Source: Escherichia coli
GTDB lineage: Bacteria > Pseudomonadota > Gammaproteobacteria > Enterobacterales > Enterobacteriaceae
NCBI RefSeq assembly: GCF_030384885.1
Contig: NZ_CP128613.1
Direction: 5' to 3' (one strand)
Length of the DNA stretch: 64,000 bases
Both the position numbers and the translations under genes were made by a program. Positions 28,457-49,074 of this stretch are shown piece after piece; the first letter of the stretch is position 1, and each line of letters begins with the position of its first letter. A model generated the notes under the pieces. The model ran no database searches. It saw nothing but the letters and a program-made list of their open reading frames with translations, and had not been told where the DNA came from.

Positions 28457-28590
28457 CTAGGCCCCTTGTATAAAGTTCTAAAAGCAGTTTTCAATGATAA
28501 ATAAATGGCGATTTTTACAAAGAGATAATAACGTAGATTGAAATAATATGTATTATTGATTGAGTAAACGGGATTATTCTTCACACTGCA

Positions 28591-28690: not shown

Positions 28691-28789
28691 GTTGAAATAT
28701 TTCATCTAATGTCTGGTTCAACTTTCCTTAGCTGCCTGAAAGTTTTTTTGATATTACCCATCAATAATAGGGTTACGGTGTACCACGCC

Positions 28790-32400: not shown

Positions 32401-33979
32401 TAATGTTACGCCAGTTAAACTTGAAGGGGTGGTCCGGATTACCGATAGCGCGACATTAACTATCGGAAATGGCGTCGATACGACGCTTGCCGACCTGACG
32501 GCTGCCAGCCGGGGCAGTGTCTGGCTTAACAGCAATAATTCCTGTGCAGGCACCAGCAACTGCGAATATAGAGTAAACAGTTTGCTCCTCAACGACGGTG
32601 ATGTTTATTTATCAGCACAAACAGCAGCGCCTGCCACAACTAACGGTATCTACAATACGCTGACCACCAGTGAACTTTCCGGCAGCGGTAATTTCTACCT
32701 GCATACCAACGTTGCAGGCTCCCGGGGCGATCAACTGGTCGTCAACAACAACGCCACTGGCAATTTTAAAATCTTTGTTCAGGATACCGGCGTCAGCCCT
32801 CAGTCTGACGACGCGATGACGCTGGTGAAAACAGGGGGAGGGGATGCTTCGTTTACGCTGGGTAATACCGGCGGTTTCGTTGATCTTGGGACCTATGAGT
32901 ATGTCCTGAAAAGCGACGGCAACAGCAACTGGAACCTGACCAATGATGTCAAACCCAACCCGGATCCCAACCCAAATCCGAAACCGGATCCAAAACCAGA
33001 CCCAAAACCGGATCCGAAACCAGACCCGACTCCCGATCCAACGCCGACACCCGTCCCGGAGAAACGCATCACGCCTTCTACGGCAGCCGTACTCAATATG
33101 GCAGCAACATTACCGTTGGTCTTTGATGCTGAGCTAAACAGTATTCGCGAGCGGTTGAACATAATGAAAGCGAGTCCACACAACAATAATGTCTGGGGGA
33201 CGACGTATAACACCCGTAATAATGTCACCACCGATGCGGGTGCCGGGTTTGAGCAGACGCTGACCGGAATGACGGTGGGGATCGATAGCCGTAATGATAT
33301 TCCTGAGGGGATTGCGACGCTGGGCGCTTTTATGGGTTATTCCCATTCACATATCGGTTTTGATCGTGGAGGACATGGCAGTGTGGGCAGTTATTCTCTG
33401 GGGGGCTATGTCAGCTGGGAACATGAAAGTGGTTTCTATCTGGACGGTATCGTGAAGCTGAACCGCTTTGAAAGTAACGTAGCCGGTAAAATGAGCAGCG
33501 GTGGAGCCGCCAACGGCAGTTATCGCAGCAACGGGCTGGGTGGTCATCTTGAAACCGGGATGCGATTTACCGATGGTAACTGGAACCTGACGCCGTATGC
33601 ATCGTTAACGGGGTTCACCGCTGATAACCCCGAATATCATTTATCCAATGGTATGGAATCGAAATCAGTCGATACCCGCAGTATATATCGTGAACTGGGC
33701 GCAACGCTGAGTTACAACATGCGTCTGGGGAACGGCATGGAAGTTGAGCCGTGGCTGAAGGCGGCTGTGCGCAAAGAATTTGTCGATGATAACCGGGTGA
33801 AAGTGAATAATGACGGTAATTTTGTCAATGATTTGTCGGGCAGACGTGGAATATACCAGGCAGGTATTAAAGCCTCATTCAGCAGTTCGTTAAGCGGGCA
33901 TCTCGGGGTAGGGTATAGCAATGGTGCTGGTTTGGAATCCCCGTGGAACGCGGTGGCTGGTGTGAACTGGTCGTTCTGA
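29411..33979 (+). CDS. ypjA: AIDA-I/YpjA-type autotransporter adhesin (~1,522 aa)
   Basis: ORF 29324..33979. Likely start MNRTSPYYFRRSVLSLLISALIYAPPGMAA (signal peptide). Long degenerate ~19-aa beta-helix repeats (GGxQxVxxGGxAxxTxI), a Pro-rich linker, and a C-terminal beta-barrel ending ...AVAGVNWSF. Confidence 0.9.
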   Translation: MNRTSPYYFRRSVLSLLISALIYAPPGMAAFTSTVIGVVNDETVDGVQRVDERGTTNNTHIINHGYQDVYGGVSNGSIIESGGYQDVGGHYNFVGQANNTTINGGRQTIHDGGISTGTIIESGNQDVYTGGISNGTTIKGGNSHISGGTANGTIIDGGSQRVTTQGHVDSTTINKSGSQDITQGSLATNTTINGGRQYVEQSTVETTTIKNGGEQRVYENHALDTTIEGGTQSLNNKSTAKYTQIYSGGTQIVDYTSTSDVIEIYSGGVLDVSGGTATNVTQHDGAILKTNTNGTTVSGTNSEGAFSIHNNVADNVLLENGGHLDVYGSANKTIIKDNGTMSVLANAKADATRIDNGGVMDVAGNATNTIINGGTQNINNHGIATGTNINSGTQNIKSGGKADTTNISSGSRQVVEKDGTATGSNISAGGSLIVYTGGIAHGVNQETGSALVANTGAGTDIEGYNKLSHFTITGGEANYVVLENTGELTVVAKTTAKNTTVDAGGKLIVQKEAKTDSTRLNNGGVLEVQDGGEAKHVEQQSGGALIASTTSGTLIEGTNSYGDAFYIRNSEAKNVVLENAGSLTVVTGSRAVDTIINANGKMDVYGKDVGTVLNSAGTQTIYASATSDKANIKGGKQTVYGLATEANIESGEQIVDGGSTDKTHLKGGTQTVQNYGKAINTDIVSGLQQIMANGTTEGSIINGGSQVVNEGGLAENSVLNDGGTLDVREKGSATGIQQSSQGALVATTRATRVTGTRADGVAFSIEQDAANNILLANGGVLTVESDTTSAKTQVNAGGREIVKTKATATGTMLTGGEQIVEGVANETTINDGGIQTVSANGEAVKTTINEGGTLTVNDNGKATDIIQNSGAALQTSTANGIEISGTHQYGTFSIAGNLATNALLENGGNLLVLAGTEARDSTVGNGGAMQNLGQDFATKVNSGGQYTLGRSKDEFQALARAEDLQVAGGTAIVYAGTLADASVSGATGSLSLMTPRDNVTPVKLEGVVRITDSATLTIGNGVDTTLADLTAASRGSVWLNSNNSCAGTSNCEYRVNSLLLNDGDVYLSAQTAAPATTNGIYNTLTTSELSGSGNFYLHTNVAGSRGDQLVVNNNATGNFKIFVQDTGVSPQSDDAMTLVKTGGGDASFTLGNTGGFVDLGTYEYVLKSDGNSNWNLTNDVKPNPDPNPNPKPDPKPDPKPDPKPDPTPDPTPTPVPEKRITPSTAAVLNMAATLPLVFDAELNSIRERLNIMKASPHNNNVWGTTYNTRNNVTTDAGAGFEQTLTGMTVGIDSRNDIPEGIATLGAFMGYSHSHIGFDRGGHGSVGSYSLGGYVSWEHESGFYLDGIVKLNRFESNVAGKMSSGGAANGSYRSNGLGGHLETGMRFTDGNWNLTPYASLTGFTADNPEYHLSNGMESKSVDTRSIYRELGATLSYNMRLGNGMEVEPWLKAAVRKEFVDDNRVKVNNDGNFVNDLSGRRGIYQAGIKASFSSSLSGHLGVGYSNGAGLESPWNAVAGVNWSF
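32951..33058 (+). repeat. Tandem Pro-rich coding repeat (PNPDPNPNPKPDPKPDPKPDPKPDPTPDPTPTPVP) in the autotransporter linker
   Basis: Direct 6/12-nt repeats ccaaaaccagac/ccaaaaccggat/ccgaaaccagac visible in the DNA. Confidence 0.85.
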
Positions 33980-34346: not shown

Positions 34347-35114
34347 TTATTGTTTTATTATCTTAACGTGCGCCGTTCCTCCATTGACTTTTTCGAAATC
34401 TTGGAACAAGGCAGGGGCATCTTGAGTTACAATATCGTAAAGTTTTTCTGAAACTGTTCTCATTTCATAGTCACCCTGTATTGCTCCTCTCATTTCGAAG
34501 AAGTGTCGAATTGCGCGAGCATTTGCTGTGACGATTATTTTTGTCTCGGTTGCATTAGGCAATATAGAGCGAGAAGCGCTTCTTAAGGCCCGCATTTTTT
34601 CTTTTTTGTTCTCATACGATTGGTTTTCACGGATTTTTTTCAAGGATTGCTTATAAAAATCCAGACTACTTTCAATATGTTGGCACCATGACTTAAACAA
34701 TTCTGGGTCATTTTTTACTTCTATAGGGGCTACGAATTCAGCATCGGATTCATCATGATACTGTTGGGATAACTGGCTATATGAAAAACCAGCTCTATGC
34801 CGAACTAGCTGGTGTGTAAATGCACGAGATACCCCAGTAATTAAAAAGGTCCAGTTCAAATGTTCTAAGACACTTTCATGCCCTTGAATAATTAAATTGT
34901 TGATATATTGACTTGTAGTCCGTGGAGACTGCTTATCCTCTCCAAAAGACATATAACATAGCCTGCCAGCGGCCTCTACCAGAAGCTCAGCTTCGGTCGC
35001 CTGCCCTTTGCGAACCCATTGCAATGATGATGTGTTTAAAAAATCATCAAAAACATTACTTTCAAATGAAGGGTGTGATATGCATTTTACTGATAAATCA
35101 GAGATTTTTATCAT
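34347..35114 (-). CDS. ThyX-like (flavin-dependent thymidylate synthase fold) protein with a variant ThyX motif
   Basis: 255 aa. GHESVLEH, THQLVRHRAGFSYSQLSQQY (compare RHRxxSxxxxSxRY) and LPNATETKIIVTANARAIRHFFEMR resemble ThyX. AT-rich. Starts 2 nt after the upstream ORF stop. Confidence 0.7.
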   Translation of the reverse strand: MIKISDLSVKCISHPSFESNVFDDFLNTSSLQWVRKGQATEAELLVEAAGRLCYMSFGEDKQSPRTTSQYINNLIIQGHESVLEHLNWTFLITGVSRAFTHQLVRHRAGFSYSQLSQQYHDESDAEFVAPIEVKNDPELFKSWCQHIESSLDFYKQSLKKIRENQSYENKKEKMRALRSASRSILPNATETKIIVTANARAIRHFFEMRGAIQGDYEMRTVSEKLYDIVTQDAPALFQDFEKVNGGTAHVKIIKQ

Positions 35115-35116
35115 TT

Positions 35117-35902
35117 TTACTCCCGTATAGCTTTTGGGGTGCTTACTTTAGCATCAACCTTTGGTTCGTTTGATTTAGCATTTTTTAGTAATTCAACGGT
35201 GCTTTTTAGGCTATTTATTTCATTTTGTTGAACTTTTATTGTTAATTCAAGATCTTTTGTACTACTGACATTACTGGATACTATTTGAAATAAGAAAGGA
35301 ATTGCTAGGGTTATCAACGTTAGCATTAAGGCTGCTATCGCAATTATAAAGCCAGTTTTTTTCGCAATGATTTTATTGATTTCTTTCGGAAGTCGTTTAT
35401 CAAGTCCTGCAAAATCCTTTCCCATTCTAGAAAGTTGATCATCATCCAATTTATTTACGATTTTTCCTTGGTAACCTTTAGTCGGTATTATTGTTTTAAA
35501 TAATAACATTCGGGCTACTGCTGAATTTTGTGTCAATGAGAATGGTTCTTTTGACATATTTACAAGATATATTGAAATTATGCCATTATATCCAGGGTCA
35601 ATATGCCCTGGATTCGTCATGATAATTCCATTTTTTGATAGTGTGTTTCTTGGAAATATTACACCAGCTAAATTTTTTGCAAGTTGGAATTTTTCATTTA
35701 ACTCTAATATTACAGTTTCCCCTGGCATCAGGATATGGTTGTTACGTGTTTTTTTATTGTCTTGACAGTCTGGTATATGTATTGTTTTTACAGAGAGATC
35801 AATGCTTGCAGATTGAACTTTAAATGTTCCATTTAATACCGTTAATGGATCAAAAATGTTGCCTCGCTGAATTTCATCATTGATTTCTATTTCAGACAGC
35901 AT
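35117..35902 (-). CDS. dCTP deaminase/dUTPase-superfamily domain protein with C-terminal TM helix and coiled-coil tail
   Basis: 261 aa. SIDLSV, PGETVILELNEKFQL, FPRNTLSKNGIIMTNPGHIDPGYNGIISIYLVN align by eye with E. coli Dcd (DGRSSLARLG...HRIDPGWSGCIVLEFYN) and Dut motif III (GLIDSDYQG). TM segment GFIIAIAALMLTLITLAIPFLFQIV. Confidence 0.7.
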   Translation of the reverse strand: MLSEIEINDEIQRGNIFDPLTVLNGTFKVQSASIDLSVKTIHIPDCQDNKKTRNNHILMPGETVILELNEKFQLAKNLAGVIFPRNTLSKNGIIMTNPGHIDPGYNGIISIYLVNMSKEPFSLTQNSAVARMLLFKTIIPTKGYQGKIVNKLDDDQLSRMGKDFAGLDKRLPKEINKIIAKKTGFIIAIAALMLTLITLAIPFLFQIVSSNVSSTKDLELTIKVQQNEINSLKSTVELLKNAKSNEPKVDAKVSTPKAIRE

Positions 35903-35928: not shown

Positions 35929-36942
35929 TTATAAATTAGCCAGAGGGTTTTTTATTACTGCATCTTCAAGATGCTCTGGGGAAAAATGTGCATAAATCAT
36001 AGTCATTTTTATATCAGAGTGGCCTAAAATATCTCGTAAAACCAAAATATTACCACCATTCATCATAAAATGGCTGGCGAATGTATGGCGCAGAACGTGA
36101 GTGCATTGGCCCTCTGGTAACTCAATGTCAGCTCGCTTTACTGCTCGTTCAAAGGCTTTTCTGCAAGGAGTGAATAACTTCCCTCTGTTCTTAGGGAGTT
36201 CGTCATACAGATCCTGAGATATCGGCACGGTACGGTTTTTCTTGCCCTTAGTCTTGGTATAGGTGATCCGGTATTTCGATAACTGATGGCCCTGCAGATT
36301 TTCGGCTTCACTCCAGCGCGCGCCGGTGGCCAGGCATATTTTTGTAATTAAAAGTAGACTGGGGCTTTGAGAATCAGCACAGGCATCCAGCAGACGTTTA
36401 ATTTCTTCCGGGGTCAGGAACGACAGTTCACCCTCAGCAATTTTAAATGTTGGCAGCCCGGCAAGCGGATTGGGGGCTGACCAGTGGCCCAACTTTTTCA
36501 GTGTGCCAAAAACAGATGATAGGTTGCGCTGTTCAAGGTTTACAGTGCGGGGCTTAACGGGCGACATAAGCGTGCCCTCTTCATTTCGCACTTCACCTTT
36601 TAGCCGCGCTTCTCGGTATTTAGTAAAATCACCGGCTGTCAGCTCTGAGGCGATGGGATCGCCTAGACCATTACAGATAATTCTAAGTTTCGCCATGAGG
36701 CGCTTGGGGTCTGCGAGTGTTTGACCATACAGGGAATACCACTGCTCAATTAATTCTGATAGGTGTCGCCGATCTTCCTTTTCCCCCAGCCATGGCTTTT
36801 TGTTCACTTCTTCCATTGTGAAGCTTTCAAAAGCAATGGCTTCGCCTTTCGTAGCAAATTGCTTACGCACGCGCTTGCCATTGCGTCCATGGGGATAGCA
36901 CTCGCACAACCATTTACCGTTTGGCTGTTTTCTGACAGTCAT
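35929..36942 (-). CDS. int: Phage tyrosine integrase (P2/186 family)
   Basis: 337 aa. Box I ATGARWSEAENL, box II HVLRHTFASHFMMNGGNILVLRDILGHSDIKMTMIYAH (R, H-x-x-R, H, Y). Confidence 0.9.
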   Translation of the reverse strand: MTVRKQPNGKWLCECYPHGRNGKRVRKQFATKGEAIAFESFTMEEVNKKPWLGEKEDRRHLSELIEQWYSLYGQTLADPKRLMAKLRIICNGLGDPIASELTAGDFTKYREARLKGEVRNEEGTLMSPVKPRTVNLEQRNLSSVFGTLKKLGHWSAPNPLAGLPTFKIAEGELSFLTPEEIKRLLDACADSQSPSLLLITKICLATGARWSEAENLQGHQLSKYRITYTKTKGKKNRTVPISQDLYDELPKNRGKLFTPCRKAFERAVKRADIELPEGQCTHVLRHTFASHFMMNGGNILVLRDILGHSDIKMTMIYAHFSPEHLEDAVIKNPLANL

Positions 36943-36944
36943 GT

Positions 36945-37577
36945 TTAGATACTCTTTATTACTTTGACTGCACGCCCAATAACTTCCACATCATCAGTAG
37001 AGCACTCGAAAGACGCTTCATCTTGATTTACTACAATCTTATTGCCGGGAATCCGCATGATTTTTGCAACAATAATCATTCCATCAATATTGATAAGCCA
37101 GAATCCATTGCTGACCTGTTTAATTGATTTATCGATGAGATAACAATTAGTAGGGGTTTCTAAGAACATCAATTCTTCATAATCTGCAGGTAATATGCTG
37201 TGGTCTAGGAAAATCTCTTCATCAATACTGAGTTGTCCATTCTCCAGGGTTCCTTTAGGAATAGCTGGAGTTATGAGTTTGGATAACGGTTTAATTGCTT
37301 GTTTGTTCTCATTATGAGAACTTTTCTCAGGCTCAGCTCCTCCTTTCATGCTTCCCTGTCCTGTAGCTAACCAAAGCAACGAAACACCGGTTTCTAGTGC
37401 GCACTGAATTATCCAGTCAGCAGGAAAGCTGTCACGTAACACTCTGTTTGCCATAGTGCTTTTTGAGACATTCAGGTGCTCGCTTAATGCCTGCTTAGTT
37501 GTGAATCCATAAGCCTCAAGCAGCCTTTCAATAGCTGCCTTACCTCCCGTATCGGAACCCATTCTGATGTTTAACAT
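36945..37577 (-). CDS. cI: 186-type CI immunity repressor
   Basis: 210 aa. N-terminal HTH (TKQALSEHLNVSKSTMANRVLRDSFPADWIIQCALETGVSLLWLATGQG), typical of the phage 186 CI family. Divergent from the apl-cII lytic operon. Confidence 0.8.
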   Translation of the reverse strand: MLNIRMGSDTGGKAAIERLLEAYGFTTKQALSEHLNVSKSTMANRVLRDSFPADWIIQCALETGVSLLWLATGQGSMKGGAEPEKSSHNENKQAIKPLSKLITPAIPKGTLENGQLSIDEEIFLDHSILPADYEELMFLETPTNCYLIDKSIKQVSNGFWLINIDGMIIVAKIMRIPGNKIVVNQDEASFECSTDDVEVIGRAVKVIKSI

Positions 37578-39845: not shown

Positions 39846-40072
39846 TGGCTGATGCAATGGATCTCGTACAGCAGCGCGTTGAAGAAGAACGCCAACGCCA
39901 TATCCGTGCTGCCCGTGCCAAAACGCCGGGCGTGTCCCGCGTGCTTTGCATTGAGTGTGAAGCGCCAATTCCGCCAGCACGCCGCCGTGCCATTCCGGGT
40001 GTGCAGCTTTGCATTACCTGTCAGGAAATCGCAGAGCTGAAAGGCAAACATTACAACGGAGGTGCTGTATGA
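39845..40072 (+). CDS. TraR/DksA-family C4 zinc-finger protein
   Basis: 75 aa with CIECEAPIPPARRRAIPGVQLCITCQ (CxxC-N17-CxxC), typical of P2/186 early operons. Confidence 0.8.
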   Translation: MADAMDLVQQRVEEERQRHIRAARAKTPGVSRVLCIECEAPIPPARRRAIPGVQLCITCQEIAELKGKHYNGGAV

Positions 40073-40926
40073 GCACCATCCTGAAATGGGCGGGAAATAA
40101 AACTGCCATAATGTCCGAACTGAAAAAACATCTTCCTGCTGGCCCGCGACTGGTTGAACCTTTCGCGGGTTCCTGTGCTGTGATGATGGAGACGGATTAT
40201 CCCAGCTATCTGGTTGCGGATATTAATCCTGATTTAATCAACCTCTATAAAAAGGTTGCCGCTGATTGTGAATCGTTTATATCTCGCGCCAGAGTTTTAT
40301 TTGAGATCGCAAACAGGGAGGTGGCTTATTACAACATAAGGCAGGAGTTTAATTACTCAACTGAAATTACTGATTTCATGAAAGCGGTATATTTCCTGTA
40401 TCTCAATCGTCACGGTTACCGTGGTTTATGTCGCTATAACAAGAGCGGGCATTTCAACATTCCCTACGGTAATTATAAAAATCCGTATTTCCCTGAAAAA
40501 GAAATTCGCGCATTTGCAGAAAAGGCCCAGCGAGCAACGTTTATCTGCGCCAGCTTTGATGAAACGCTGGCGATGTTGAAGGCGGGGGATGTGGTGTATT
40601 GCGATCCGCCGTATGACGGTACGTTTTCCGGCTATCACACTGACGGCTTCACTGAAGATGACCAGTATCACCTGGCATCTGTTCTTGAACATCGGTCATC
40701 AGAAGGACATCCGGTCATTGTTTCTAACAGTGACACATCCCTGATCCGTTCGCTGTATCGCAATTTTACTCACCACTACATCAAGGCAAAACGCAGCATC
40801 GGTGTGGCAGCTGGCGAGGGTAAATCAGCAACAGAAATCATTGCTGTTTCCGGGCCGCGCTGCTGGGTGGGATTTGATTATTCGCGTGGCGTGGATAGTT
40901 CTGCCGTGTACGGAGTACGTGCATGA
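40069..40926 (+). CDS. dam: Phage DNA adenine methyltransferase (Dam, GATC-type, N6-MTase)
   Basis: ORF 40009..40926; the internal Met gives [11 protein letters not shown]...[10 protein letters not shown] (SAM motif) and VYCDPPY (catalytic DPPY). Start overlaps the upstream stop. Confidence 0.85.
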
Positions 40927-43337
40927 GTCATGCCGATATGAACAACTGCTGCGGCTTTAACGAAGCTGCCGCATCGTTCTCATGGAACAGCCCGAAAAAG
41001 GCCATTAACCCTTATCTGGACCCGGCGGAAGTTGCGCCGGTTTCTGCGCTTTCAAACCTGATCACTCTGTACGCTACTGATAACGAGCAGGAACAACTGC
41101 GCCGCGAGGCACTGAGTGATCAGGTCTGGGAGCGTTATTTCTTTAATGAATCCCGTGATCCTGTCCAACGCGAAATGGAGCAGGATAAGCTCATTAGCCG
41201 GGCAAAGATGGCGCATGAGCAGCAGCGTTTTAATCCAGACATGGTCATTCTGACTGACGTCAACGCCCAGCCTTCCCATATCAGCAAGCCGCTGATGCAA
41301 CGTATTGAATATTTCAGCAGCCTGGGCAGGCCAAAGGCTTATTCCCGCTATTTGCGTGAGACGATTAAGCCATGTCTGGAACGACTGGAGCATGTACGCG
41401 ACAGCCAGCTATCTGCATCTTTTCGTTTTATGGCAAGCCATGAAGGGCTGGACGGTCTGCTGATCCTGCCTGAAATGAGTCAGGATCAGGTGAAACGCCT
41501 GTCTACCCTTGTCGCTGCGCATATGAGCATGTGTCTTGATGCCGCTTGTGGTGATTTGTACGCCTCCGATGATGTTAAGCCAGAAGAAATCCGCAAGACA
41601 TGGGAAAAGGTGGCTGCAGAAACCCTGCGACTGGATGTCATACCGCCTGCGTTTGAGCAACTCCGCCGGAAAAGAAACCGCCGCAAACCTGTGCCTTATG
41701 AACTCATTCCGGGTTCGCTGGCGCGTATGCTGTGCGCCGACTGGTGGTATCGGAAATTATGGAAGATACGTTGCGAATGGCGGGAAGAGCAGTTGCGTGC
41801 TGTCTGCCTGGTCAGCAAAAAAGCATCTCCCTATGTCAGCTATGAAGCCGTGATGCATAAACGTGAGCAGCGCCGTAAGTCGCTGGAGTTTTTCCGTTCT
41901 CATGAACTGGTGAACGAAGACGGCGACACGCTGAACATGGAGGATGTGGTAAACACCAGCAGCAGCAACCCGGCGCATCGCCGCAACGAGATGATGGCCT
42001 GTGTTAAAGGCCTAGAGCTTATCGCGGAAATGCGTGGTGACTGCGCCGTTTTCTACACCATCACCTGTCCGTCACGTTTCCATTCCACGCTAAATAACGG
42101 CAGGCCAAACCCGACCTGGACCAACGCGACAGTAAGACAAAGCAGCGATTATCTGGTCGGCATGTTTGCTGCATTTCGTAAGGCTATGCACAAAGCCGGG
42201 TTGCGCTGGTATGGCGTGCGGGTGGCTGAGCCGCATCATGACGGCACAGTTCACTGGCACCTGTTGTGTTTCATGCGCAAAAAAGACCGCCGCGCCATTA
42301 CTGCATTGTTGCGTAAGTTTGCCATCCGTGAAGACCGCGAGGAGCTGGGCAATAACACGGGGCCACGCTTTAAGTCTGAGCTGATAAACCCGCGCAAAGG
42401 AACGCCGACAAGCTACATTGCGAAATATATCAGTAAGAATATTGACGGGCGTGGTCTGGCTGGCGAGATCAGTAAGGAAACGGGTAAATCCCTGCGTGAT
42501 AACGCTGAATACGTTAATGCCTGGGCGTCTCTGCATCGTGTTCAGCAATTCCGCTTCTTTGGCATTCCGGGGCGTCAGGCTTACCGTGAACTGCGATTGC
42601 TGGCTGGTCAGGCGGCAAGGCAACAGGGTGACAAAAAAGCAGGTGCGCCGGTACTGGATAACCCGCGCCTTGATGCCATCCTGGCTGCTGCTGATGCTGG
42701 TTGTTTTGCCTCCTACATCATGAAGCAGGGCGGCGTACTGGTTCCCCGCAAATATCACCTCATCAGAACCGCTTATGAAATCAACGAAGAGCCGACCGCC
42801 TATGGCGATCACGGTATTCGTATTTATGGCATCTGGTCACCCATTGCAGAGGGCAAGATCTGCACTCATGCAGTGAAGTGGAAAATGGTTCGTAAGGCCG
42901 TTGACGTTCAGGAGGCGGCAGCCGACCAGGGCGCTTGCGCCCCTTGGACTCGTGGCAATAACTGTCCCCTTGCTGAAAATTTGAACCAACAGGAGAAAGA
43001 TAAATCAGCTGATGGGGACACCAGAACGGACATTACCCGCATGGATGACAAGGAGTTGCACGATTACCTGCACAGTATGAGCAAAAAAGAGCGCCGGGAA
43101 CTGGCTGCAAGGTTACGCCAGGTGAAACCGAAACGGCGTAAAGACTACAAACAGCGAATTACAGACCATCAGCGACAGCAGCTCGTCTATGAACTGAAGT
43201 CCAGGGGATTTGATGGCAGTGAGAAAGAAGTCGATTTGCTCCTTCGCGGTGGCAGTATTCCGTCAGGAGCAGGCCTGCGTATTTTCTATCGGAACCAGCG
43301 TCTGAAGGAAGATGATAAGTGGCGGAACCTGTATTAA
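40923..43337 (+). CDS. A: P2 gpA/186 A-type rolling-circle replication initiator endonuclease
   Basis: 804 aa. HUH-type region [16 protein letters not shown] and active-site Tyr region [15 protein letters not shown]. Position after dam. Confidence 0.85.
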
Positions 43338-43429
43338 TTACGCGGGTTAACAATTCGTGCCCTTAATAATACCAGGCATATCAGGCTGATGAATGTAAAA
43401 AAACGTTTTACATCAGTAAGATTATTATA

Positions 43430-43449
43430 TACTGTAAATATAAACAGTG
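43430..43449. promoter_or_regulatory. LexA (SOS) box upstream of the tum-like operon
   Basis: tACTGtaaatataaaCAGtg = CTG-N10-CAG with an AT-rich core, 40 nt upstream of the ATG at 43490. Phage 186 tum is known to be LexA-controlled. Confidence 0.8.
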
Positions 43450-43489
43450 GTTATCTATACAGTATTGCTTTGGTGTCATAGGAGGAAAG

Positions 43490-43678
43490 ATGCAGGACTA
43501 TTTTTTGGAGTCTTTGAAGCTCCAGCGCATTGATTTTTTTCTTAAGCTTGTAGCGGCTAGTGAGTGTAGTGATGAAGAGAAGGGGCTGGCTCTGCAGTGG
43601 GTTTCTGAACTGACAGATGAACTCATGGCAAAAATCAGAACCCACGAATACAACCGCTCAATGGATGTCATCAGCTGA
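43490..43678 (+). CDS. Small protein at the Tum N-terminal position (putative antirepressor part)
   Basis: 62 aa; GGAGGA SD. Immediately downstream of the LexA box and 10 nt upstream of the DinI-like ORF. Confidence 0.55.
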   Translation: MQDYFLESLKLQRIDFFLKLVAASECSDEEKGLALQWVSELTDELMAKIRTHEYNRSMDVIS

Positions 43679-43688
43679 GGTGACTTTT

Positions 43689-43922
43689 ATGCGCATTGAA
43701 ATAATGATCGATAAAGAGCAGAAGATTAGCCAGTCTACCCTGGACGCCCTTGAATCCGAGCTTTACCGCAATCTGCGCCCCCTGTATCCCAAAACGGTAA
43801 TCCGTATCCGTAAAGGTAGCTCTAACGGTGTGGAACTGACCGGACTGCAACTGGACGAAGAAAGAAAACAAGTGATGAAAATTATGCAGAAGGTGTGGGA
43901 AGACGACAGCTGGCTGCATTGA
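43689..43922 (+). CDS. DinI-family protein (Tum C-terminal-like)
   Basis: ORF 43617..43922; the internal Met at 43689 (SD tGAGGTGa) gives MRIEIMIDKEQKISQSTLDALESELYRNLRPLYPKTVIRIRKGSSNGVELTGL...VWEDDSWL, a DinI-like sequence. Confidence 0.75.
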   Translation: MRIEIMIDKEQKISQSTLDALESELYRNLRPLYPKTVIRIRKGSSNGVELTGLQLDEERKQVMKIMQKVWEDDSWLH

Positions 43923-44035
43923 TTTTGTCAATAGACGCTTGTTTTTACTAATCAAAAAGGGTTACATATGAGTGAGAGGCGATGTCAATCAGATATCGCC
44001 TTGTTTTTTGTCAAGAAAAGAATAATAGGCTAAAA

Positions 44036-44713
44036 ATGAAAATTAATAATGTAGCGTTACCAATATCTCTTGCTGTAATCCTAACTGGTTGCGTGCCACA
44101 TGCTTCTAACCGAAATATCACTGCTATTGAAGTGGTGAAGCCTGCTATTGGGCAAAGTGCTACCGCCTACATGGGCGATCCCATTATCACATCTGCTACT
44201 GGATTTAAAACGGACGTACTAGAACTTGGTGCGGCTAATGGTGCATTGTCTTCTATCGCTGCTGGTACATATTGCAGTGAGGGGAATGGAATTTACCGCA
44301 ATTATCATAACCCTCAAGCTGTTGCGTTAAAAAATCTCTATGGGCAAATCGGTAACTATGTTGATTATGTTAGTTACGATGCTGCAAAAAATGAGATATC
44401 ACCGCCAAATGGTACTTCTTATACTGCATCAGAAATTTCTATCAAACGTGTTCCTGATGGGCTGTGTCGAGTTAGTAACTCATTGGTTAAGACTATCGAA
44501 TACAATGGAAATGCAGGCGGTGTAATGAAGTTCACCTATCGTGAATTTGCAAACGATATGGCTCGTGCAGCATTTACAACAGATTTTTCTGTAGATTCTA
44601 AGGGAAGTGACGTTATCGCTTACAAAGGTGCCAAGTTCAAAGTGAACAAGGCTGATAACTCGTCTATTTCTTATACAATTATTTCTGGCTTTGACAAGGC
44701 TGTCACGTTCTAG
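44036..44713 (+). CDS. Prophage cargo lipoprotein (225 aa)
   Basis: ORF 43982..44713; the internal Met gives MKINNVALPISLAVILTGC (lipobox LTGC). No recognisable domain. Confidence 0.65.
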   Translation: MKINNVALPISLAVILTGCVPHASNRNITAIEVVKPAIGQSATAYMGDPIITSATGFKTDVLELGAANGALSSIAAGTYCSEGNGIYRNYHNPQAVALKNLYGQIGNYVDYVSYDAAKNEISPPNGTSYTASEISIKRVPDGLCRVSNSLVKTIEYNGNAGGVMKFTYREFANDMARAAFTTDFSVDSKGSDVIAYKGAKFKVNKADNSSISYTIISGFDKAVTF

Positions 44714-44817
44714 GTTTCACGCTTACTGAGTATGTTACGATTTTGCACATTCTGCATAAACGCGCATGTCTATGCTGCATGAGATCGCATGATCGTTTGA
44801 GGATCTTTTGTGTTAAG

Positions 44818-44841
44818 GCCCGCCAGTTCTGGCGGGCTTTT
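44818..44841 (+). terminator. Rho-independent terminator after the lipoprotein gene
   Basis: gcccgccag-tt-ctggcgggc followed by tttt. Confidence 0.75.
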
Positions 44842-45038
44842 GCGTAGATCATGCAGGTGCATGAAAACCACTACATAAAGCGGGCAGGCGTGGCGGGGAT
44901 ACGAGCGCGCGTTATGACAAATAGATGATTAGCCTGATTTATTCACAGCTGTATAAATGATCACCTTGTAATTAGGTAAGTAATGTCTTCTATTATCATT
45001 GATTTGATAGGATTAATCTGTTTTTTGAGGATTAGAGG

Positions 45039-47375
45039 ATGATTGAAGAGGTAGTTATTGACAAAGTAGGCTCATATAATGGCCCTACTCAGCTTTTACA
45101 TGGGCTTTCTAAATTTAACTATTTATATGGAGCTAATGGTGCAGGTAAAACAACTATAAGTAAAATTATTAATGACCCTGAACAATATCCAACATGTCCG
45201 ATTAAATGGAAAAATAATATATCTTTAATAAGCTACGTATATAATAAAGATTTTGTTGAAAGAAATTTTAGTCAAGATAAAATTAAAGGTGTATTTACCC
45301 TTGGTAGCGATCTTAAGGAGGATGAAGAGAAATTAATATCTCTTGAAGAAGAAAAAAATAAGCTAATAGAATCTATTATAGCAAAGGAAAAGCTAATAGA
45401 TGGTGGTGATAATATATTAGGCGTTGTTAAACAAATCGAAGACCATGAAAAATCTTTTAAAGATTCATGTTGGAAGCAAAAAGTAAAACATGATAATGTG
45501 TTCTCAAAGGCTTTTGAGGGATTAAGGAATAGTAGTGAAAAATTTAAAGCTAGAGTGTTGGCTGAGTATGAAAATAACACATCAGAAGTTTGCTCAATAG
45601 CAGAGCTAATTGAGAAAGCAAAAATTGTTTTTTCTACTGAATTGACATCACATGTATCAATTACAATTCCATCCTTCAATGGGATAGATGATATTTTGAG
45701 TAGGGAGATTTGGAGTGAGCGTATTCTAGGGAAAAAAGACGTTAGTGTTTCAGACTTAATTACAATGCTCAATAACAGTGATTGGGTTAAGGAAGGTTTA
45801 ACATATTTCAGTAAATCTAATCCCAAGTGCCCATTCTGCCAGCAGGATGTAAATGATAATATATTTGATAATCTATCATCATATTTTGATAAAACATATG
45901 AGTTAAAAAAAAGAGAAATCGATGCATTGGTTTTACAATATGAACATCAACTTAATAATATCTTGCAGGCGATAGATGATATAAGGGCGATTAAATCTCC
46001 ATTCATAAATTATGAAGTGTTTGAGGATAAGGCTAAGATAGTATTATCTGAATTAAACAAGAATTTTGAATTGGCAAAAAATAAACGCAATTTTTTAAGT
46101 GAATCAGTTCATTTTAGTGACTTAAGTGAAGTTGTTGATGATTTTATTTCTTTTTTGAATGATTCAAATCTATTGATAGATAATAATAACAAAATACACA
46201 GTAATAGAAAGGTAGAGGCTAGTAATCTTTCTAATCAGATATGGGCATATATCGTAAAGGTGGAGTTAAAGTCTGAAATAACTTCTTACCGTAGCGAATC
46301 TGATAAATTTAATAGGAAGTTACAAGGGCTTAAATCTGGGTTAGAGGAAGACAAAAAGAAGTTAATGTTAAATGCTTCGGCTATTGAGGCAATTGAGTCT
46401 AATAAAACCAGTACTCTTCCAACTATTACAAAAATTAACAAGATTCTGGATTCTTATGGCTTCAAAAATTTTTACTTAAAACCCTCCGAAGATAAAAAGC
46501 ATTATATGATAGTGAGAGATAGTGGAGATAATGCTCGTACAACCCTTAGCGAGGGAGAAAAGACATTTATCACTTTTTTGTATTTTTATAGCCTTGTTAG
46601 AGGGAGTGATAATGCATCAGGTGTTTTAGATGATCGTGTTGTAGTATTTGATGATCCAATTTCAAGTTTAGATAGTGATATTCTGTTTATTGTAAGTTCG
46701 TTGATTAAAGATTTAATGGAGGATGTTCGTAAGGATGAAGGAAATATTAAGCAAATTATATTCCTTACACATAATATTTATTTTCATAAAGAGTTGACTT
46801 TTAATACTAAAAGATCCGGTAATCAAGCAATGAAAGAGGAGACTTTTTGGATTGTAAGGAAAAAAGGGAAGGTCTCATATCTTGAAAAGTGCGAATCAAA
46901 CCCAATAAAAACGTCTTATGATTTGCTCTGGTGCGAATTGAGAAGAACAGATATTAATAATAATACTATACAAAATACAATGCGAAGGATTTTGGAGAAT
47001 TACTTTAAGATATTAGGTGGGATGGATATTAGGAAGCTTGAATGTCATTTTTATGGTGATGAAAAAATCATATTTAAATCTTTAGTGTCATGGATTAATG
47101 ATGGTTCTCATTTTGCAGGTGATGATCTTTATATGAATTTAGATACGGAGTCTGTGCAAAAATATTTAATTGTTTTTCAGAAGATATTTGAGTGTAGTGA
47201 GCATACTGCCCATTACAAAATGATGATGGGTGAGTTTTATAGACCGTTAAATGAGTCACTTCATCTACAAGATGAGTTTGATATTGATGATAGTGCGAAT
47301 GATGAGTATGCTTCGTCAAAAATTGAGATAGAAGATGGAATAAACACATCTCTACATAGTAATACATATTTGTAA
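45039..47375 (+). CDS. RloC/PrrC-like ABC-type ATPase (AAA_13-like) with coiled-coil CxxC hook and putative C-terminal anticodon-nuclease region
   Basis: 778 aa, AT-rich. Walker A GANGAGKTT, signature LSEGEKTF, Walker B VVVFDDPISSLD, H-loop FLTHN, a long Lys/Glu-rich insert containing KCPFCQQ, and a C-terminal MRRILENYF...NDGSH motif. Confidence 0.65.
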   Translation: MIEEVVIDKVGSYNGPTQLLHGLSKFNYLYGANGAGKTTISKIINDPEQYPTCPIKWKNNISLISYVYNKDFVERNFSQDKIKGVFTLGSDLKEDEEKLISLEEEKNKLIESIIAKEKLIDGGDNILGVVKQIEDHEKSFKDSCWKQKVKHDNVFSKAFEGLRNSSEKFKARVLAEYENNTSEVCSIAELIEKAKIVFSTELTSHVSITIPSFNGIDDILSREIWSERILGKKDVSVSDLITMLNNSDWVKEGLTYFSKSNPKCPFCQQDVNDNIFDNLSSYFDKTYELKKREIDALVLQYEHQLNNILQAIDDIRAIKSPFINYEVFEDKAKIVLSELNKNFELAKNKRNFLSESVHFSDLSEVVDDFISFLNDSNLLIDNNNKIHSNRKVEASNLSNQIWAYIVKVELKSEITSYRSESDKFNRKLQGLKSGLEEDKKKLMLNASAIEAIESNKTSTLPTITKINKILDSYGFKNFYLKPSEDKKHYMIVRDSGDNARTTLSEGEKTFITFLYFYSLVRGSDNASGVLDDRVVVFDDPISSLDSDILFIVSSLIKDLMEDVRKDEGNIKQIIFLTHNIYFHKELTFNTKRSGNQAMKEETFWIVRKKGKVSYLEKCESNPIKTSYDLLWCELRRTDINNNTIQNTMRRILENYFKILGGMDIRKLECHFYGDEKIIFKSLVSWINDGSHFAGDDLYMNLDTESVQKYLIVFQKIFECSEHTAHYKMMMGEFYRPLNESLHLQDEFDIDDSANDEYASSKIEIEDGINTSLHSNTYL

Positions 47376-47424
47376 TTTTATTGCAATTGCCAGTAGCAAC
47401 AATACGGTACTGGCAACTAATATT

Positions 47425-47965
47425 TTAGTTAAGCTCATATGGAGAAAATTCTATAAGTTTCTCCCCGAGCCATGCGTTTATTTCCATAAATCGTTTTTGC
47501 AAAGGAATTAATTCATTTATCACAAAAACCTTACTAGCCTTCTCCACATCCCCAAACCCCCCAACATTATTAGGCATTATCCCCATCATTTGCGGCGGCA
47601 CACGGTGTGCCGCCATCATGTCGTCCCGGCTCACGTTCTTGATATTCAGAAACTCATCCTTCGCCGCGACTTCTGACAACGGGATAATCTGAAGCCCGTC
47701 CTTTTTGCCGTTAGGAGAGTACATAAACAGGTTGCGGAAGTTGCCTGGCCCTTTGGCACTTTTCATTGCGTTGCGGAGGTTGTTCACATCTTCTTGGTTC
47801 TGTGCGGCATCGGTCATGTACATGATGAAACCTGCATGGCTGCCGTTGATGTAATACTTACGGCGGAACAGTGTGGCGGACTCGTTGAGCAGGGCTGACG
47901 GGATGGCAGAGAGATAACCTGGCAGGCCGTAGATCTCCTGGTTGATGTCCGGTTCCGCCCTTAAT
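47425..47965 (-). pseudogene. P2 gpQ-type portal protein, C-terminal ~180 codons only
   Basis: Minus-strand frame reads ...AEPDINQEIYGLPGYLSAIPSALLNESATLFRRKYYINGSHAGFIMYMTDAAQNQEDVNNL...PPQMMGIMPNN, matching recalled P2 Q. The N-terminal half is missing (junction near 47965). Confidence 0.7.
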
Positions 47966-48335
47966 CATCTCAACCATGCGTTACAGCTCGATCCCCGCTG
48001 TGGCGTGAAAAAAGACAAACAGCAGCTGGAGCGCAGACTGCGCAATGACAGCCGCTGACAGAACGTGCCCCCGCGCACGGGCGGCACGGGGTGGCGAAAG
48101 GCACAGCCACATCAAAACCCCGTCCACCGCCCTTTATTTCAGGAGAAAGCAGCATGAAGTTTGTTGCGCCAGAACAGGCACCGGAACAGGCGGAAATCAT
48201 CAGAAACACGCCGTTCTGGCCTGATGTGGACCTGTCGGAGTTTCGCAGTGTCATGCGCACTGACGGCACGGTGACGCAGCCGCGTTTAAAGCAGGTTGCG
48301 CTGTCGGCAATTTCGGAGGTCAACGCACCGATACG
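47966..48335 (+). pseudogene. Late-gene relics: C-terminal tail of a gpM-like gene (tentative) and N-terminal ~60 codons of gpL head-completion protein
   Basis: ...LDPRCGVKKDKQQLERRLRNDSR* ends at 48058. Then AGGAGA SD and MKFVAPEQAPEQAEIIRNTPFWPDVDLSEFRSVMRTDGTVTQPRLKQVALSAISEVN (ATG 48154), gpL-like, which loses similarity after ~48330. Confidence 0.5.
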
Positions 48336-48497
48336 ACCATTTGCATTGATGTAAACAAAGTGAAGTTCTTCCATGTGAAACCTCTTTGCATGATTTCAAG
48401 ATGGCGACAGGCAAGATGGACGCAAAAGTCTGTCGCCATTTTGCCGCCACTACCAAAGAAAAAGGGGCTACGCTTTCACGTAACCCCTTGATTTATT

Positions 48498-48860
48498 TGG
48501 TGGAGCTGGCGGGAGTTGAACCCGCGTCCGAAATTCCTACATCCTCGGTACTACATGCTTAGTCAGTCTTTACATTCGCTTGCCAGCTGCGGACGGACAC
48601 GCCACTAACAAACTAGCCTGATTAAGTTTTAACGCTTCAACCCCAGGCAGGGCTTCCACGCGATCTCTTTTGGGTTTGACCTCTCTTGATCCCCGTCCTA
48701 AGAGCGGAGGCTAGGGAGAGAGGGCTCTAAGCAGGTTATTAAGCTGCTAAAGCGTAGTTTTCGTCGTTTGCGACTATTTTTTGCGGCTTTTTACGAGGCC
48801 AACCGCCCCTCGGCATGCACCTTGGGTTTCGCAAATCCCGTCGAATCCAGAATCAGCCCC
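48498..48860 (-). ncRNA. ssrA: tmRNA (SsrA), 363 nt
   Basis: Reverse complement starts ggggctgattctggattcgacgggatttgcgaaaccc and ends ...ggacgcgggttcaactcccgccagctccacca. Tag reading frame gcaaacgacgaaaactacgctttagcagcttaa (ANDENYALAA*) is present at 48739-48771. Confidence 0.97.
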
Positions 48861-49074
48861 AATGTGTAACGGTAAGTATACCAGATTCATGAGTGCCATG
48901 ACCAGCCTCAATGGCGTTATCGTTAAAGATTTAGCACCCGTGTAGCCTGATATTTATTCGATTAAGCAATGGGATGGCAACATTTGGGTCGGATGTGATA
49001 GCCAATAAGATGTTCATTCGCGCCGCCGGAGAGGGTGGCGCGGTGAGGAACTGGTCAATAATTGGAGTGCAGAT

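What the first reader, a model, noticed from the sequence alone, without database searches (positions are those of the whole stretch)
45039..47375. RloC/PrrC-like 778-aa ABC ATPase with CxxC hook occupying the P2 tin/old-equivalent cargo slot
**Seen in the sequence**
- A stand-alone AT-rich ORF with its own upstream region; the preceding gene is terminated at 44818-44841.
- It has all ABC/SMC-head motifs: GANGAGKTT, LSEGEKTF, VVVFDDPISSLD, FLTHN.
- A ~350-aa Lys/Glu-rich, probably coiled-coil, insert splits the head and contains KCPFCQQ.
- The C-terminal region carries MRRILENYF...WINDGSHF. This resembles the Arg/Glu/His anticodon-nuclease constellation of PrrC and RloC.

**Established knowledge**
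- RloC is a zinc-hook-containing tRNA wobble-nucleotide-excising nuclease implicated in phage and DNA-damage responses.
- The locus after gene A in P2-like prophages (tin/old) is a known defence-cargo hotspot.

**Inference**
- This is a defence-type translation-disabling nuclease. It has no adjacent type I R-M partner, unlike PrrC.
- It is not novel as a family, but it is unvalidated here, and it is one of only a few genes the decayed prophage has retained.
Basis: partly seen in the sequence, partly recalled or inferred. Interest (0 to 1): 0.55.

Follow-up and report, generated by a model that had tools for sequence, protein, structure and literature searches.

The report
RloC-type tRNA nuclease in P2 prophage
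This is an intact, well-conserved member of the known RloC family (a Rad50-like ATPase fused to a tRNA-cutting domain) sitting in the known defence-cargo slot of a decayed P2-like prophage, so it is a correct but ordinary annotation that has not been tested experimentally.

Summary
The ORF is real: 45039-47375 (+), 778 aa, about 30% GC in a roughly 50% GC background, bracketed by two hairpin terminators.
- Walker A G31-T38
- C264-P-F-C267
- LSEGE 503-507
- VVVFDDPISSLD 534-545
- LTH578
- R649-x3-E653-x37-S690-H691

It matches Pfam AAA_13 end to end (E=6e-164) and PADLOC candidate family PDC-S06 (E=1.5e-266). It meets all three sequence criteria of the original RloC definition. It is collinear (27% identity, E=1e-45) with the E. 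coli APEC O1 protein listed as an RloC orthologue in 2008, which I found in the same slot of an intact P2-like prophage.

In 20 of 5426 complete E. coli genomes the same gene lies next to the portal gene. In the two loci inspected it sits between gene A/DinI and portal gene Q of intact P2-like prophages. A 51%-identical relative sits in a P4-satellite hotspot. Rousset et al. (2022) already list "RloC-like" AAA_13 as the fifth commonest P2-hotspot cargo.

tRNase activity and phage defence remain inferred. The HEPN fold of the C-domain could not be confirmed structurally. Novelty and interest are low.

The parts
44764..44817 (+). Left edge of the shared cargo cassette
   Evidence: Nucleotide homology with the 20 E. 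coli genomes that carry the gene starts at query position 65 of 44700-47500, i.e. about 44764. Upstream of that point the cargo differs between strains.
44817..44841 (+). Intrinsic-terminator-like hairpin upstream of the gene (11-bp G+C-rich stem, then TTTT)
   Evidence: Sequence read. The fold gives -22.3 kcal/mol, z=-5.3, with 0 of 200 shuffles folding as well.
44842..45038 (+). AT-rich 197-bp upstream region with GAGGA/AGAGG Shine-Dalgarno-like sequences before the ATG; the promoter is not identified
   Evidence: Sequence. The consensus promoter scan found no site on the + strand in this stretch.
45039..47375 (+). RloC-family gene, 778 aa plus stop. The protein is identical to RefSeq WP_040072399.1 ('AAA family ATPase').
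45039..45314 (+). ABC-ATPase head, N-terminal half (residues 1-92), with Walker A GANGAGKT at residues 31-38 (nt 45129-45152)
   Evidence: Foldseek matches to Rad50/SMC heads.
45315..46406 (+). Helical, Lys/Glu-rich insert (residues 93-456), read as the coiled-coil arm
   Evidence: DSSP on the AlphaFold model shows long helices at 93-121, 129-151, 285-318, 325-351, 363-388, 390-409 and 411-456. K+E is 20-25%. Twelve of the 14 allelic amino-acid differences fall here.
45828..45839 (+). C264-P-F-C267, putative zinc-hook half-site near the middle of the insert
   Evidence: C264, P265 and C267 are invariant and F266 and Q268 are over 90% conserved in 128 sequences. The motif sits in a short beta-hairpin between helices.
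46407..46829 (+). ABC-ATPase head, C-terminal half (residues 457-597): signature LSEGE 503-507 (nt 46545-46559), Walker B/D-loop VVVFDDPISSLD 534-545 (nt 46638-46673), H-loop LTH 576-578 (nt 46764-46772)
46830..47243 (+). C-terminal anticodon-nuclease-type domain (residues 598-735): R649 and E653 (nt 46983-46997), S690-H691 (nt 47106-47111), and also invariant H725
   Evidence: Motif spacing, conservation. The PADLOC PrrC model aligns through residue 703. The domain model has pLDDT 82.
47244..47372 (+). Clade-specific acidic, disordered tail (residues 736-778) with the SANDE motif (752-756)
   Evidence: pLDDT is below 50 for 744-778.
47387..47416 (.). Hairpin between the convergent RloC-type gene and the portal remnant; a likely bidirectional terminator
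   Evidence: -15.7 kcal/mol on the + strand and -16.4 kcal/mol on the - strand, z=-4.4 and -3.6.
40923..43337 (+). Context: P2 gene A-type replication endonuclease, the left landmark of the cargo slot
   Evidence: ORF. The same gene order is annotated in intact prophages.
47425..47823 (-). Context: truncated portal (gene Q) remnant, the right landmark of the cargo slot
   Evidence: Pfam Phage_portal, partial match to profile positions 200-277 of 321.

Best explanation
The gene encodes a member of the RloC family. The protein is a single-chain, self-regulated, translation-disabling nuclease. It has a Rad50/SMC-like ABC-ATPase head split by a long helical arm, a CxxC zinc-hook half-site near the middle of that arm, and a C-terminal PrrC/RloC-type anticodon-nuclease domain.

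It is carried as a stand-alone cargo cassette in the variable slot between gene A/DinI and portal gene Q of P2-like prophages, the slot that holds tin and old in P2 itself.

Proposed mechanism (inferred from work on Geobacillus and Acinetobacter RloC):
1. The protein is made at a low level and kept silent by its own ATPase/zinc-hook switch.
2. DNA ends or aberrant replicating DNA, produced by an infecting phage or by genotoxic stress, are bound by the head and arm and stimulate ATP hydrolysis.
3. This releases the nuclease, which cuts tRNA anticodon loops using Arg649, Glu653 and His691.
4. Translation stops and the infection aborts, which protects the lysogen population.

What is shown here: the architecture, the motifs and their conservation, the genomic slot, purifying selection, and the lack of a fixed partner gene. 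What is inferred: zinc binding, DNA sensing, tRNA as the substrate, and the defence phenotype.
For: - Family assignment: Pfam AAA_13 covers residues 10-718 of 778 at E=5.8e-164. PADLOC PDC-S06 is full length at E=1.5e-266, and the PrrC model covers residues 459-703.
- All three published RloC criteria are met. These are the ABC motifs; the helical insert with an invariant CPFC; and R649-x3-E653-x37-S690-H691, which is invariant or over 90% conserved in 128 sequences at 33-66% identity.
- Structure: the confident AlphaFold model (pLDDT 89) finds its best solved matches in Rad50, SMC, AriA, LmuB and PtuA heads.
- Link to a listed orthologue: the protein is collinear (27% identity, E=1e-45) with APEC O1 WP_000423308. 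That protein is the 738-aa orthologue no. 51 in Table S1 of the RloC paper, and it lies in the same P2 slot. Both proteins hit PDC-S06.
- Naming: homologues at 42-45% identity are named 'wobble nucleotide-excising tRNase' by JGI.
- Genomic slot: the gene is found in 20 of 5426 complete E. coli genomes, always next to the portal gene. The two loci inspected are intact P2-like prophages. A 51%-identical relative lies in a P4-satellite hotspot.
- Selection: dN/dS is 0.12 between alleles, and no substitution falls in the head or the nuclease domain.
- Neighbours: across 78 species there is no universal partner. A minority of loci lie inside type I R-M operons (12 HsdS and roughly 6-10 HsdR among 121 neighbours). 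This matches the published description of rloC.
- Literature: ATPase, DNA and zinc-hook control of the nuclease (PMC3458546). Activation by DNA-break inducers and tRNA-Glu/Gln cleavage in Acinetobacter baylyi (PMC3874168). 'RloC-like' AAA_13 listed as a common P2-hotspot cargo (PMC9122126 supplement).
Against: - No experiment exists for this subfamily.
- Identity to the only literature-listed orthologue I could retrieve is 27%. Identity to the biochemically studied Geobacillus and Acinetobacter proteins is unknown, because I could not obtain their sequences.
- The literal HEPN Rx4-6H motif is absent next to His691; the sequence there is W-I-N-D-G-S-H.
- In the papers I read, RloC is cited as an antiviral system, but I saw no plaque or other phage-challenge assay for any RloC.
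- No promoter was identified, and expression from this decayed prophage is unknown.
Confidence: 0.75

Rival explanations
1. It is a Rad50/SMC-like DNA-sensing ATPase whose C-terminal domain is a nuclease with a different target, such as mRNA, rRNA or DNA. The outcome would still be abortive infection, but not through anticodon-loop cleavage.
For: - The C-domain has no recognisable solved structural neighbour.
- The literal HEPN Rx4-6H motif is missing.
- Substrate preference differs even among characterised RloC and PrrC enzymes.
- Many ABC-ATPase defence proteins pair the same kind of head with other effectors.
Against: - The Arg-X3-Glu-X37-Ser-His constellation matches the mutationally validated RloC/PrrC catalytic triad and its spacing.
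- The PADLOC PrrC profile aligns across this region.
Confidence: 0.12
2. In this strain the gene is a silent passenger of a dead prophage. The ORF is intact, but it is not expressed or no longer contributes to fitness.
For: - The prophage has lost its late genes.
- No promoter-like site was found in the 197-bp upstream region.
- No complete E. coli genome shares this exact remnant arrangement; the best coverage is 68%.
Against: - The protein is 100% identical to the allele in an intact prophage, with only two synonymous differences, so there has been no time for decay or decay has been selected against.
- dN/dS between alleles is 0.12.
- The cassette keeps its own flanking terminators.
Confidence: 0.08
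3. It is a DNA repair or chromosome-maintenance factor (a Rad50/SbcC analogue) that serves prophage or host DNA metabolism, and the C-terminal domain is regulatory rather than catalytic.
For: The best structural matches are Rad50 and SMC heads. The zinc-hook-like CxxC is a hallmark of Rad50.
Against: - No Mre11/SbcD-type nuclease partner is adjacent here, and none appeared among the 25 most frequent neighbour families in 78 other loci.
- The gene sits in a known defence hotspot beside changing defence cargo such as DarTG and a KAP NTPase.
- It has a patchy, horizontally transferred distribution, including 104 plasmids.
- The catalytic-type residues in the C-domain are invariant.
Confidence: 0.05

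Closest known systems
RloC (Davidov & Kaufmann 2008; COG4694; Pfam AAA_13); studied examples are Geobacillus kaustophilus GkaRloC and Acinetobacter baylyi AbaRloC
   Same: - Single polypeptide of about 700-900 aa.
- ABC-ATPase motifs, a helical insert with CxxC, and a C-terminal Arg-X3-Glu-X36-52-(Ser)His motif.
- Usually stand-alone and occasionally inside type I R-M loci.
- Horizontally mobile.
   Different: - This is a different subfamily (PADLOC model PDLC04890).
- Identity to the characterised enzymes was not measured.
- It has a 43-aa acidic tail that most members lack.
- No biochemistry exists for this subfamily.
E. coli APEC O1 RloC orthologue (YP_852004 / WP_000423308, 738 aa). Probably the prophage-borne ABC-HEPN protein APECO1_4465 of Anantharaman et al. 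2013, though that identity was not verified.
   Same: - Same P2-like prophage slot between the replication endonuclease and the portal gene.
- Same architecture and motifs, collinear over the full length, and the same PADLOC family.
   Different: - Only 27% identical.
- Opposite orientation in the slot.
- Best PADLOC sub-model is PDLC04886 rather than PDLC04890.
- INRGSH instead of INDGSH around the catalytic His.
- No acidic tail.
PrrC anticodon nuclease (EcoPrrC)
   Same: ABC-ATPase regulatory domain plus the same type of C-terminal nuclease with an Arg/Glu/His triad. The PADLOC PrrC profile matches residues 459-703 at E=2.5e-11.
   Different: - PrrC is about 400 aa and has no coiled-coil or zinc-hook insert.
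- It is always embedded in a type Ic hsd locus that silences it.
- It is triggered by the T4 Stp peptide. None of these features is present here.
P2 Old (the native occupant of this slot)
   Same: Same genomic slot. According to a 2026 preprint, Old has the same logic: an ABC-ATPase sensor coupled to a tRNA-cleaving effector, triggered by aberrant DNA or compromised RecBCD.
   Different: The Old effector is a TOPRIM domain, not a PrrC/RloC-type domain. Old has no long CxxC-bearing insert. No sequence relationship beyond the ABC head was seen; no Old or TOPRIM family appeared.
Rad50/SbcC and the defence ABC ATPases LmuB (Lamassu), AriA (PARIS) and PtuA (Septu/retron)
   Same: The head fold and helical insert give the best solved structural matches, at Foldseek E=1e-8 to 1e-4. 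Weak PADLOC hits to LmuB and AriA were also seen.
   Different: Those proteins work with separate nuclease partners (Mre11/SbcD, LmuA, AriB, PtuB). Here the effector is fused, and no partner gene is conserved.

Membership tests
RloC family (sensu Davidov & Kaufmann 2008) | [quoted passage not shown] | tested here: met
   GANGAGKT 31-38, LSEGE 503-507, VVVFDDPISSLD 534-545 and LTH578 are present and invariant or nearly so in 128 sequences. The head fold matches Rad50/SMC.
RloC family (sensu Davidov & Kaufmann 2008) | Long, largely alpha-helical insert in the ATPase domain with a central CX2C (zinc-hook) motif | tested here: met
   The insert spans residues 93-456 and is helical in the pLDDT-89 model. 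CPFC 264-267 lies near its midpoint, with arms of about 171 and 189 aa. C264, P265 and C267 are invariant.
RloC family (sensu Davidov & Kaufmann 2008) | C-proximal Arg-X3-Glu-X36-52-His motif, with Ser often preceding His | tested here: met
   R649-x3-E653-x37-S690-H691. R649 is invariant, and E653, S690 and H691 are over 90% conserved.
RloC family (sensu Davidov & Kaufmann 2008) | Detectable homology to a protein listed as an RloC orthologue | tested here: met
   27% identity, collinear 4-733 against 2-731, E=1e-45, to APEC O1 WP_000423308 (Table S1 no. 51). Both fall in the same Pfam and PADLOC families. Not tested against GkaRloC or AbaRloC, whose sequences I could not retrieve.
RloC family (sensu Davidov & Kaufmann 2008) | Wobble-nucleotide-excising tRNase activity, inhibited by Zn2+ and activated by DNA-dependent ATP hydrolysis | not testable with these tools
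   This is a biochemical property, known only for GkaRloC and AbaRloC.
PrrC | Compact protein of about 400 aa with an uninterrupted ABC domain (no coiled-coil or zinc-hook insert) | tested here: not met
   The protein is 778 aa with a 364-aa insert. The PADLOC PrrC model aligns only to residues 459-703.
PrrC | Gene embedded in a type Ic hsd (R-M) locus that silences it | tested here: not met
   The neighbours here are a 243-aa ORF with no family hit, a DinI-like gene, gene A and a portal remnant. No hsd domain was found in the ORFs scanned.
HEPN superfamily (as assigned to PrrC/RloC by Anantharaman et al. 2013) | Helical-bundle fold with an Rx4-6H active-site motif | tested here: inconclusive
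P2 hotspot cargo (tin/old slot; Rousset et al. 2022) | Located between gene A/DinI-like and portal gene Q of a P2-like prophage, in a segment whose content varies between otherwise related prophages | tested here: met
   The gene order is the same in intact prophages L001, L002 and L084. The co-resident cargo varies: DUF2971, KAP NTPase, ComF, DarT/macro, or none. The supplement of PMC9122126 lists AAA_13 'RloC-like' among the top P2-hotspot systems.

The most novel reading that the evidence does not exclude
The RloC-type cassette may be a functional replacement for Old in the same P2 slot. Both would be ABC-ATPase DNA-state sensors fused to a tRNA-cleaving effector, and both would respond to DNA ends, hairpins or a compromised RecBCD.

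In addition, the enterobacterial clade's acidic tail carries a conserved SAND[DE] motif. In sister sequences it ends in [DE][DE]xPF, which resembles the SSB C-terminal tip. The tail could be a regulatory handle that docks the protein onto the SSB-interaction network or onto a phage protein that targets it. The window allele, which lacks the PF tip, would then be wired differently.
Probability: 0.15. Interest if true: 0.5.

Novelty: already known. Interest (0 to 1): 0.25.

Why it matters
If it is active, this gene gives the host a single-gene, self-regulated abortive-infection tool that survives the death of the prophage that delivered it. It would be one more example of prophage remnants retained alongside their defence cargo.

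For the field the value is modest. In the papers I read, RloC is treated as an antiviral system, but I saw no plaque or other phage-challenge assay for any RloC. No family member turned up in my searches of solved structures. An E. coli allele in a well-understood P2 context would therefore be a convenient system for phage-challenge, tRNA-seq and cryo-EM work. It would also allow a direct comparison with Old, the ABC-ATPase tRNase that normally occupies the same slot.

Tried and rejected
- **PDB sequence search.** The full protein gave no meaningful hit; the best was E=0.45 to an unrelated protein.
- **NCBIfam.** No family reached its cut-off. The best PHROGs family, phrog_2801, has unknown function.
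- **Getting a PrrC or GkaRloC sequence for direct alignment.** tblastn of residues 459-735 against plasmids returned 104 family members, all annotated 'AAA family ATPase', 'hypothetical protein' or unannotated, and none as an anticodon nuclease. The 2008 supplement holds only residues 121-540 of GkaRloC.
- **P2 cos sequence** (GGCGAGGCGGGGAAAGCAC, recalled from memory, up to 3 mismatches). Not found in the window. I did not pursue where cos lies in this prophage lineage.
- **Promoter scan.** It gave no more sites than shuffled sequence and none in the 197-bp upstream region.
- **Rfam scan of the whole window.** Only the tmRNA and one tRNA were found, and nothing is associated with the gene.
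- **Antisense ORFs inside the gene** (for example 45272-45826, 184 aa). I treated these as artefacts of the Lys/Glu-rich coding strand and did not test them.
- **The paper on P2/P4 hotspot evolution (PMC13586616).** It does not mention RloC in its text, and no supplement is held.
Full report

Yes. The ORF listing gives a single ATG-initiated ORF at 45039-47375 on the + strand, encoding 778 aa. The two 1-kb bins covering it have 30-31% GC, against roughly 41-54% on either side.

It folds at -22.3 kcal/mol, and none of 200 shuffles folds as well. A second hairpin at 47387-47416 separates the gene from the convergent portal remnant.

A regular-expression scan places every quoted motif:
- Walker A GANGAGKT at 31-38
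- C264-P-F-C267
- LSEGE at 503-507
- VVVFDDPISSLD at 534-545
- LTH at 576-578
- R649-x3-E653
- S690-H691

The segment between the two ABC half-domains spans residues 93-456 and is 20-25% Lys+Glu.

**2. What is it?**

*Profile searches.* These are unambiguous. Pfam AAA_13 matches residues 10-718 to profile positions 2-713 of 713, at E=5.8e-164. The PADLOC candidate single-gene family PDC-S06 matches end to end at E=1.5e-266. The PrrC model matches only residues 459-703, at E=2.5e-11. NCBIfam has no specific model, and the best PHROG has unknown function.

*Family size and naming.* The family is large. A search of 1.84 billion representative proteins found 1121 clusters at E<=1e-30, and nearly all of the top 150 are collinear proteins of about 730-750 aa. 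Homologues at 42-45% identity are named 'wobble nucleotide-excising tRNase' by JGI.

*Conservation.* I aligned 128 sequences at 33-66% identity.
- Invariant: G31, N33, G36, K37, C264, P265, C267, S504, G506, E507, D538, D539, P540, H578, R649 and H725.
- Over 90% conserved: E653, S690 and H691.

*Full-length structure.* An AlphaFold model built on that alignment is confident (mean pLDDT 89, pTM 0.74). It shows:
- a two-lobed ABC head;
- an almost entirely helical insert;
- the CPFC in a short beta-hairpin near the midpoint of the insert;
- a helical C-terminal domain;
- a disordered tail from residue 744.

Foldseek against the PDB returns Rad50 first (E=1e-8). SMC heads follow, then the defence ATPases AriA, LmuB and PtuA. 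No RloC or PrrC homologue appeared in either the sequence search or the fold search of solved structures.

*Test against the published RloC definition.* Davidov & Kaufmann (2008) defined RloC by three features. They are PrrC-like ABC motifs; a coiled-coil/CX2C zinc-hook insert like that of Rad50; and a C-proximal Arg-X3-Glu-X36-52-His motif, often with Ser before the His. In GkaRloC the corresponding R692, E696 and H737 are each essential. The window protein has R649-x3-E653-x37-S690-H691, so all three sequence criteria are met.

Table S1 of that paper lists, as orthologue no. 51, a 738-aa E. coli APEC O1 protein flanked by 'phage replication initiation' and 'capsid' genes. I located that gene in the APEC O1 chromosome as WP_000423308. 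It lies between the replication endonuclease and the portal gene of an intact P2-like prophage. It aligns with the window protein over the full length, at 27% identity and E=1e-45. The CPFCQ, LSEGEKT, DDPISSL and LTHN motifs, the R-x3-E motif and the GSH motif are all aligned. It also falls in PADLOC PDC-S06. The window protein is therefore a member of the RloC family, in a sister subfamily to the APEC O1 type.

**3. Genomic context**

*This locus.* The window lies next to ssrA (tmRNA at 48498-48860) and smpB. Reading left to right, the ORFs with Pfam support are a P2-type integrase (35929-36942), a DinI-like gene and then the cargo. ORFs in the positions of CI (36945-37577), Dam (40009-40926) and gene A (40923-43337) lie between the integrase and the DinI-like gene. 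I named CI and gene A by comparison with the annotated intact prophages. A strong orphan-methyltransferase hit supports Dam.

The cargo consists of a 243-aa ORF with no family hit, followed by the RloC-type gene. After it come a truncated portal fragment, a gpL fragment and then ssrA. So the late genes are gone, but the early arm and the cargo remain.

*Other E. coli genomes.* Megablast finds the full gene at 97.5-99.7% identity in 20 of 5426 complete E. coli genomes, always next to a portal gene. In the two loci I inspected it lies in intact P2-like prophages, between the DinI-like gene and portal gene Q. Homology begins at about 44764, so the hairpin and the upstream region travel with the gene. 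Upstream of that point, different strains carry DUF2971, a KAP NTPase, ComF, or DarT plus a macro-domain protein.

*Satellite and plasmid relatives.* A 51%-identical relative (WP_001615855) sits between psu and int of a P4-like satellite. In addition, 104 plasmids carry family members.

*Neighbours across species.* In 78 loci from GTDB species representatives, spanning Proteobacteria, Bacteroidota, Firmicutes, Planctomycetota and Acidobacteriota, the immediate neighbours show no universal partner. Of 121 neighbours, 12 are HsdS, roughly 6-10 are HsdR-type and 9 are DUF2130. This is the 'rarely R-M-linked' pattern published for rloC.

*Selection.* The window protein is identical in amino-acid sequence to the allele in prophage L001, with two synonymous differences. 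Against the L002 allele, dN/dS is 0.12. All 14 amino-acid differences fall in the helical insert or the tail, and none in the head or the nuclease domain.

**4. Mechanism**

What is shown here is the architecture: sensor/switch (ABC head, arm and CxxC) fused to an effector (the Arg/Glu/His domain). Also shown are its conservation, its autonomy as a cassette, and its place in a defence hotspot.

What is inferred comes from work on GkaRloC and AbaRloC:
- The ATPase activates the nuclease, and this activation requires DNA.
- Zinc-hook mutations short-circuit the switch.

The most likely model is therefore as follows. DNA ends or aberrant DNA generated during infection or genotoxic stress trigger ATP hydrolysis. 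This unmasks the anticodon nuclease and arrests translation. I put family membership at about 0.9 and the full mechanism at about 0.6.

**5. Comparison with what is known, and novelty**

Everything that matters about this finding is already in the literature or in databases:
- The RloC family, including a P2-borne E. coli member, was described in 2008.
- Prophage-borne ABC-HEPN proteins were noted in 2013.
- Rousset et al. (2022) list AAA_13 'RloC-like' as rank 5, with 420 instances, among P2-hotspot systems. Their tables include both WP_000423308 (P2) and WP_001615855 (P4).
- PADLOC holds a model that this protein matches at E=1.5e-266.
- The exact protein is in RefSeq as a generic 'AAA family ATPase'.

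A 2026 preprint reports that P2 Old, the native occupant of this slot, is itself an ABC-ATPase-controlled tRNase triggered by aberrant DNA. That makes the RloC-type gene a plausible like-for-like replacement. This is an idea, not a result.

What remains open is experimental. In the papers I read I saw no phage-challenge assay for any RloC. My searches of solved structures found no member of the family.

**6. Verdict**

This is a catalogued member of a known kind in a known hotspot. Interest is about 0.25. The only mildly unusual feature is the clade-specific acidic tail. It carries a SAND[DE] motif, and in sister sequences it ends like the SSB C-terminal tip. I did not follow this beyond tabulating it.

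Noticed in passing
window 34347-35902 (- strand): Two AT-rich (about 32% GC) ORFs lie immediately beside the P2-type integrase. One is a 261-aa dCTP-deaminase/dUTPase-like protein (35117-35902). The other is a 255-aa ThyX-type (Pfam Thy1) thymidylate synthase (34347-35114). They have no PADLOC hit. They could be a nucleotide-pool or DNA-modification cargo pair at the int end of the prophage.
   Followed up: partly
window 43982-44713 (+): A 243-aa ORF shares the cargo slot with the RloC-type gene. It has no Pfam or PADLOC hit and carries an internal lipoprotein-like signal (MKINNVALPISLAVILTGC). It lies outside the cassette shared with other strains, where the homology starts at about 44764.
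   Followed up: partly
window 47244-47372 (residues 736-778) and homologues P0002-P0022, P0175: The enterobacterial clade has a 25-50-aa acidic, disordered tail with a conserved SAND[DE] motif. Ten of 262 homologues end in [DE][DE]xPF (for example ...SDDAPF and ...KNDIPF), which resembles the E. coli SSB C-terminal tip (from my own knowledge). The window allele ends ...HSNTYL. Most family members have almost no tail.
   Followed up: partly
L003 4514-6799 (E. coli WL164): A 761-aa relative, 51% identical to the window protein, sits in the psu-int hotspot of a P4-like satellite at tRNA-Leu. The same RloC subfamily therefore occurs in both P2 and P4 hotspots.
   Followed up: yes
window 45345-46376 and 47241-47333 (allelic differences against L002): All 14 amino-acid differences between two E. 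coli alleles fall in the helical insert (12) or the tail (2). None falls in the ATPase head or the nuclease domain. Overall dN/dS is 0.12.
   Followed up: yes
window 47425-48497: The prophage late region is reduced to a portal fragment (47425-47823, -) and a gpL head-completion fragment (48091-48354, +), which abuts the 3' end of ssrA. None of the 5426 complete E. coli genomes covers more than 68% of 43400-48900, so this remnant arrangement is not represented there.
   Followed up: partly
loci L029, L050, L059, L060, L073, L074, L080 and others: In 9 of 78 family loci from other species, a neighbouring ORF matches Pfam DUF2130. Several loci have a tightly coupled same-strand ORF of 417-478 aa (gap -3 to +16 nt) just downstream of the RloC-type gene. 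These are the likely DUF2130 members, but I did not map hits to loci. This could be an accessory partner in some subfamilies.
   Followed up: no
window 23374-33979: An AT-rich island lies between glaH and the prophage. It holds an alpha-amylase-family ORF (23374-25626, -), a tRNA-Met (26188-26263), a DUF5507/DUF5508 protein (27020-28456) and a 1551-aa AIDA-type autotransporter (29324-33979).
   Followed up: no
E. coli genomes H39-H46 (same slot as window 43923-45038): In other strains the RloC-type cassette is preceded in the same slot by a KAP-family NTPase, a ComF-family protein, or DarT plus a macro-domain protein (DarTG). The slot is therefore modular, with the RloC-type gene always at the portal-proximal end.
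   Followed up: partly
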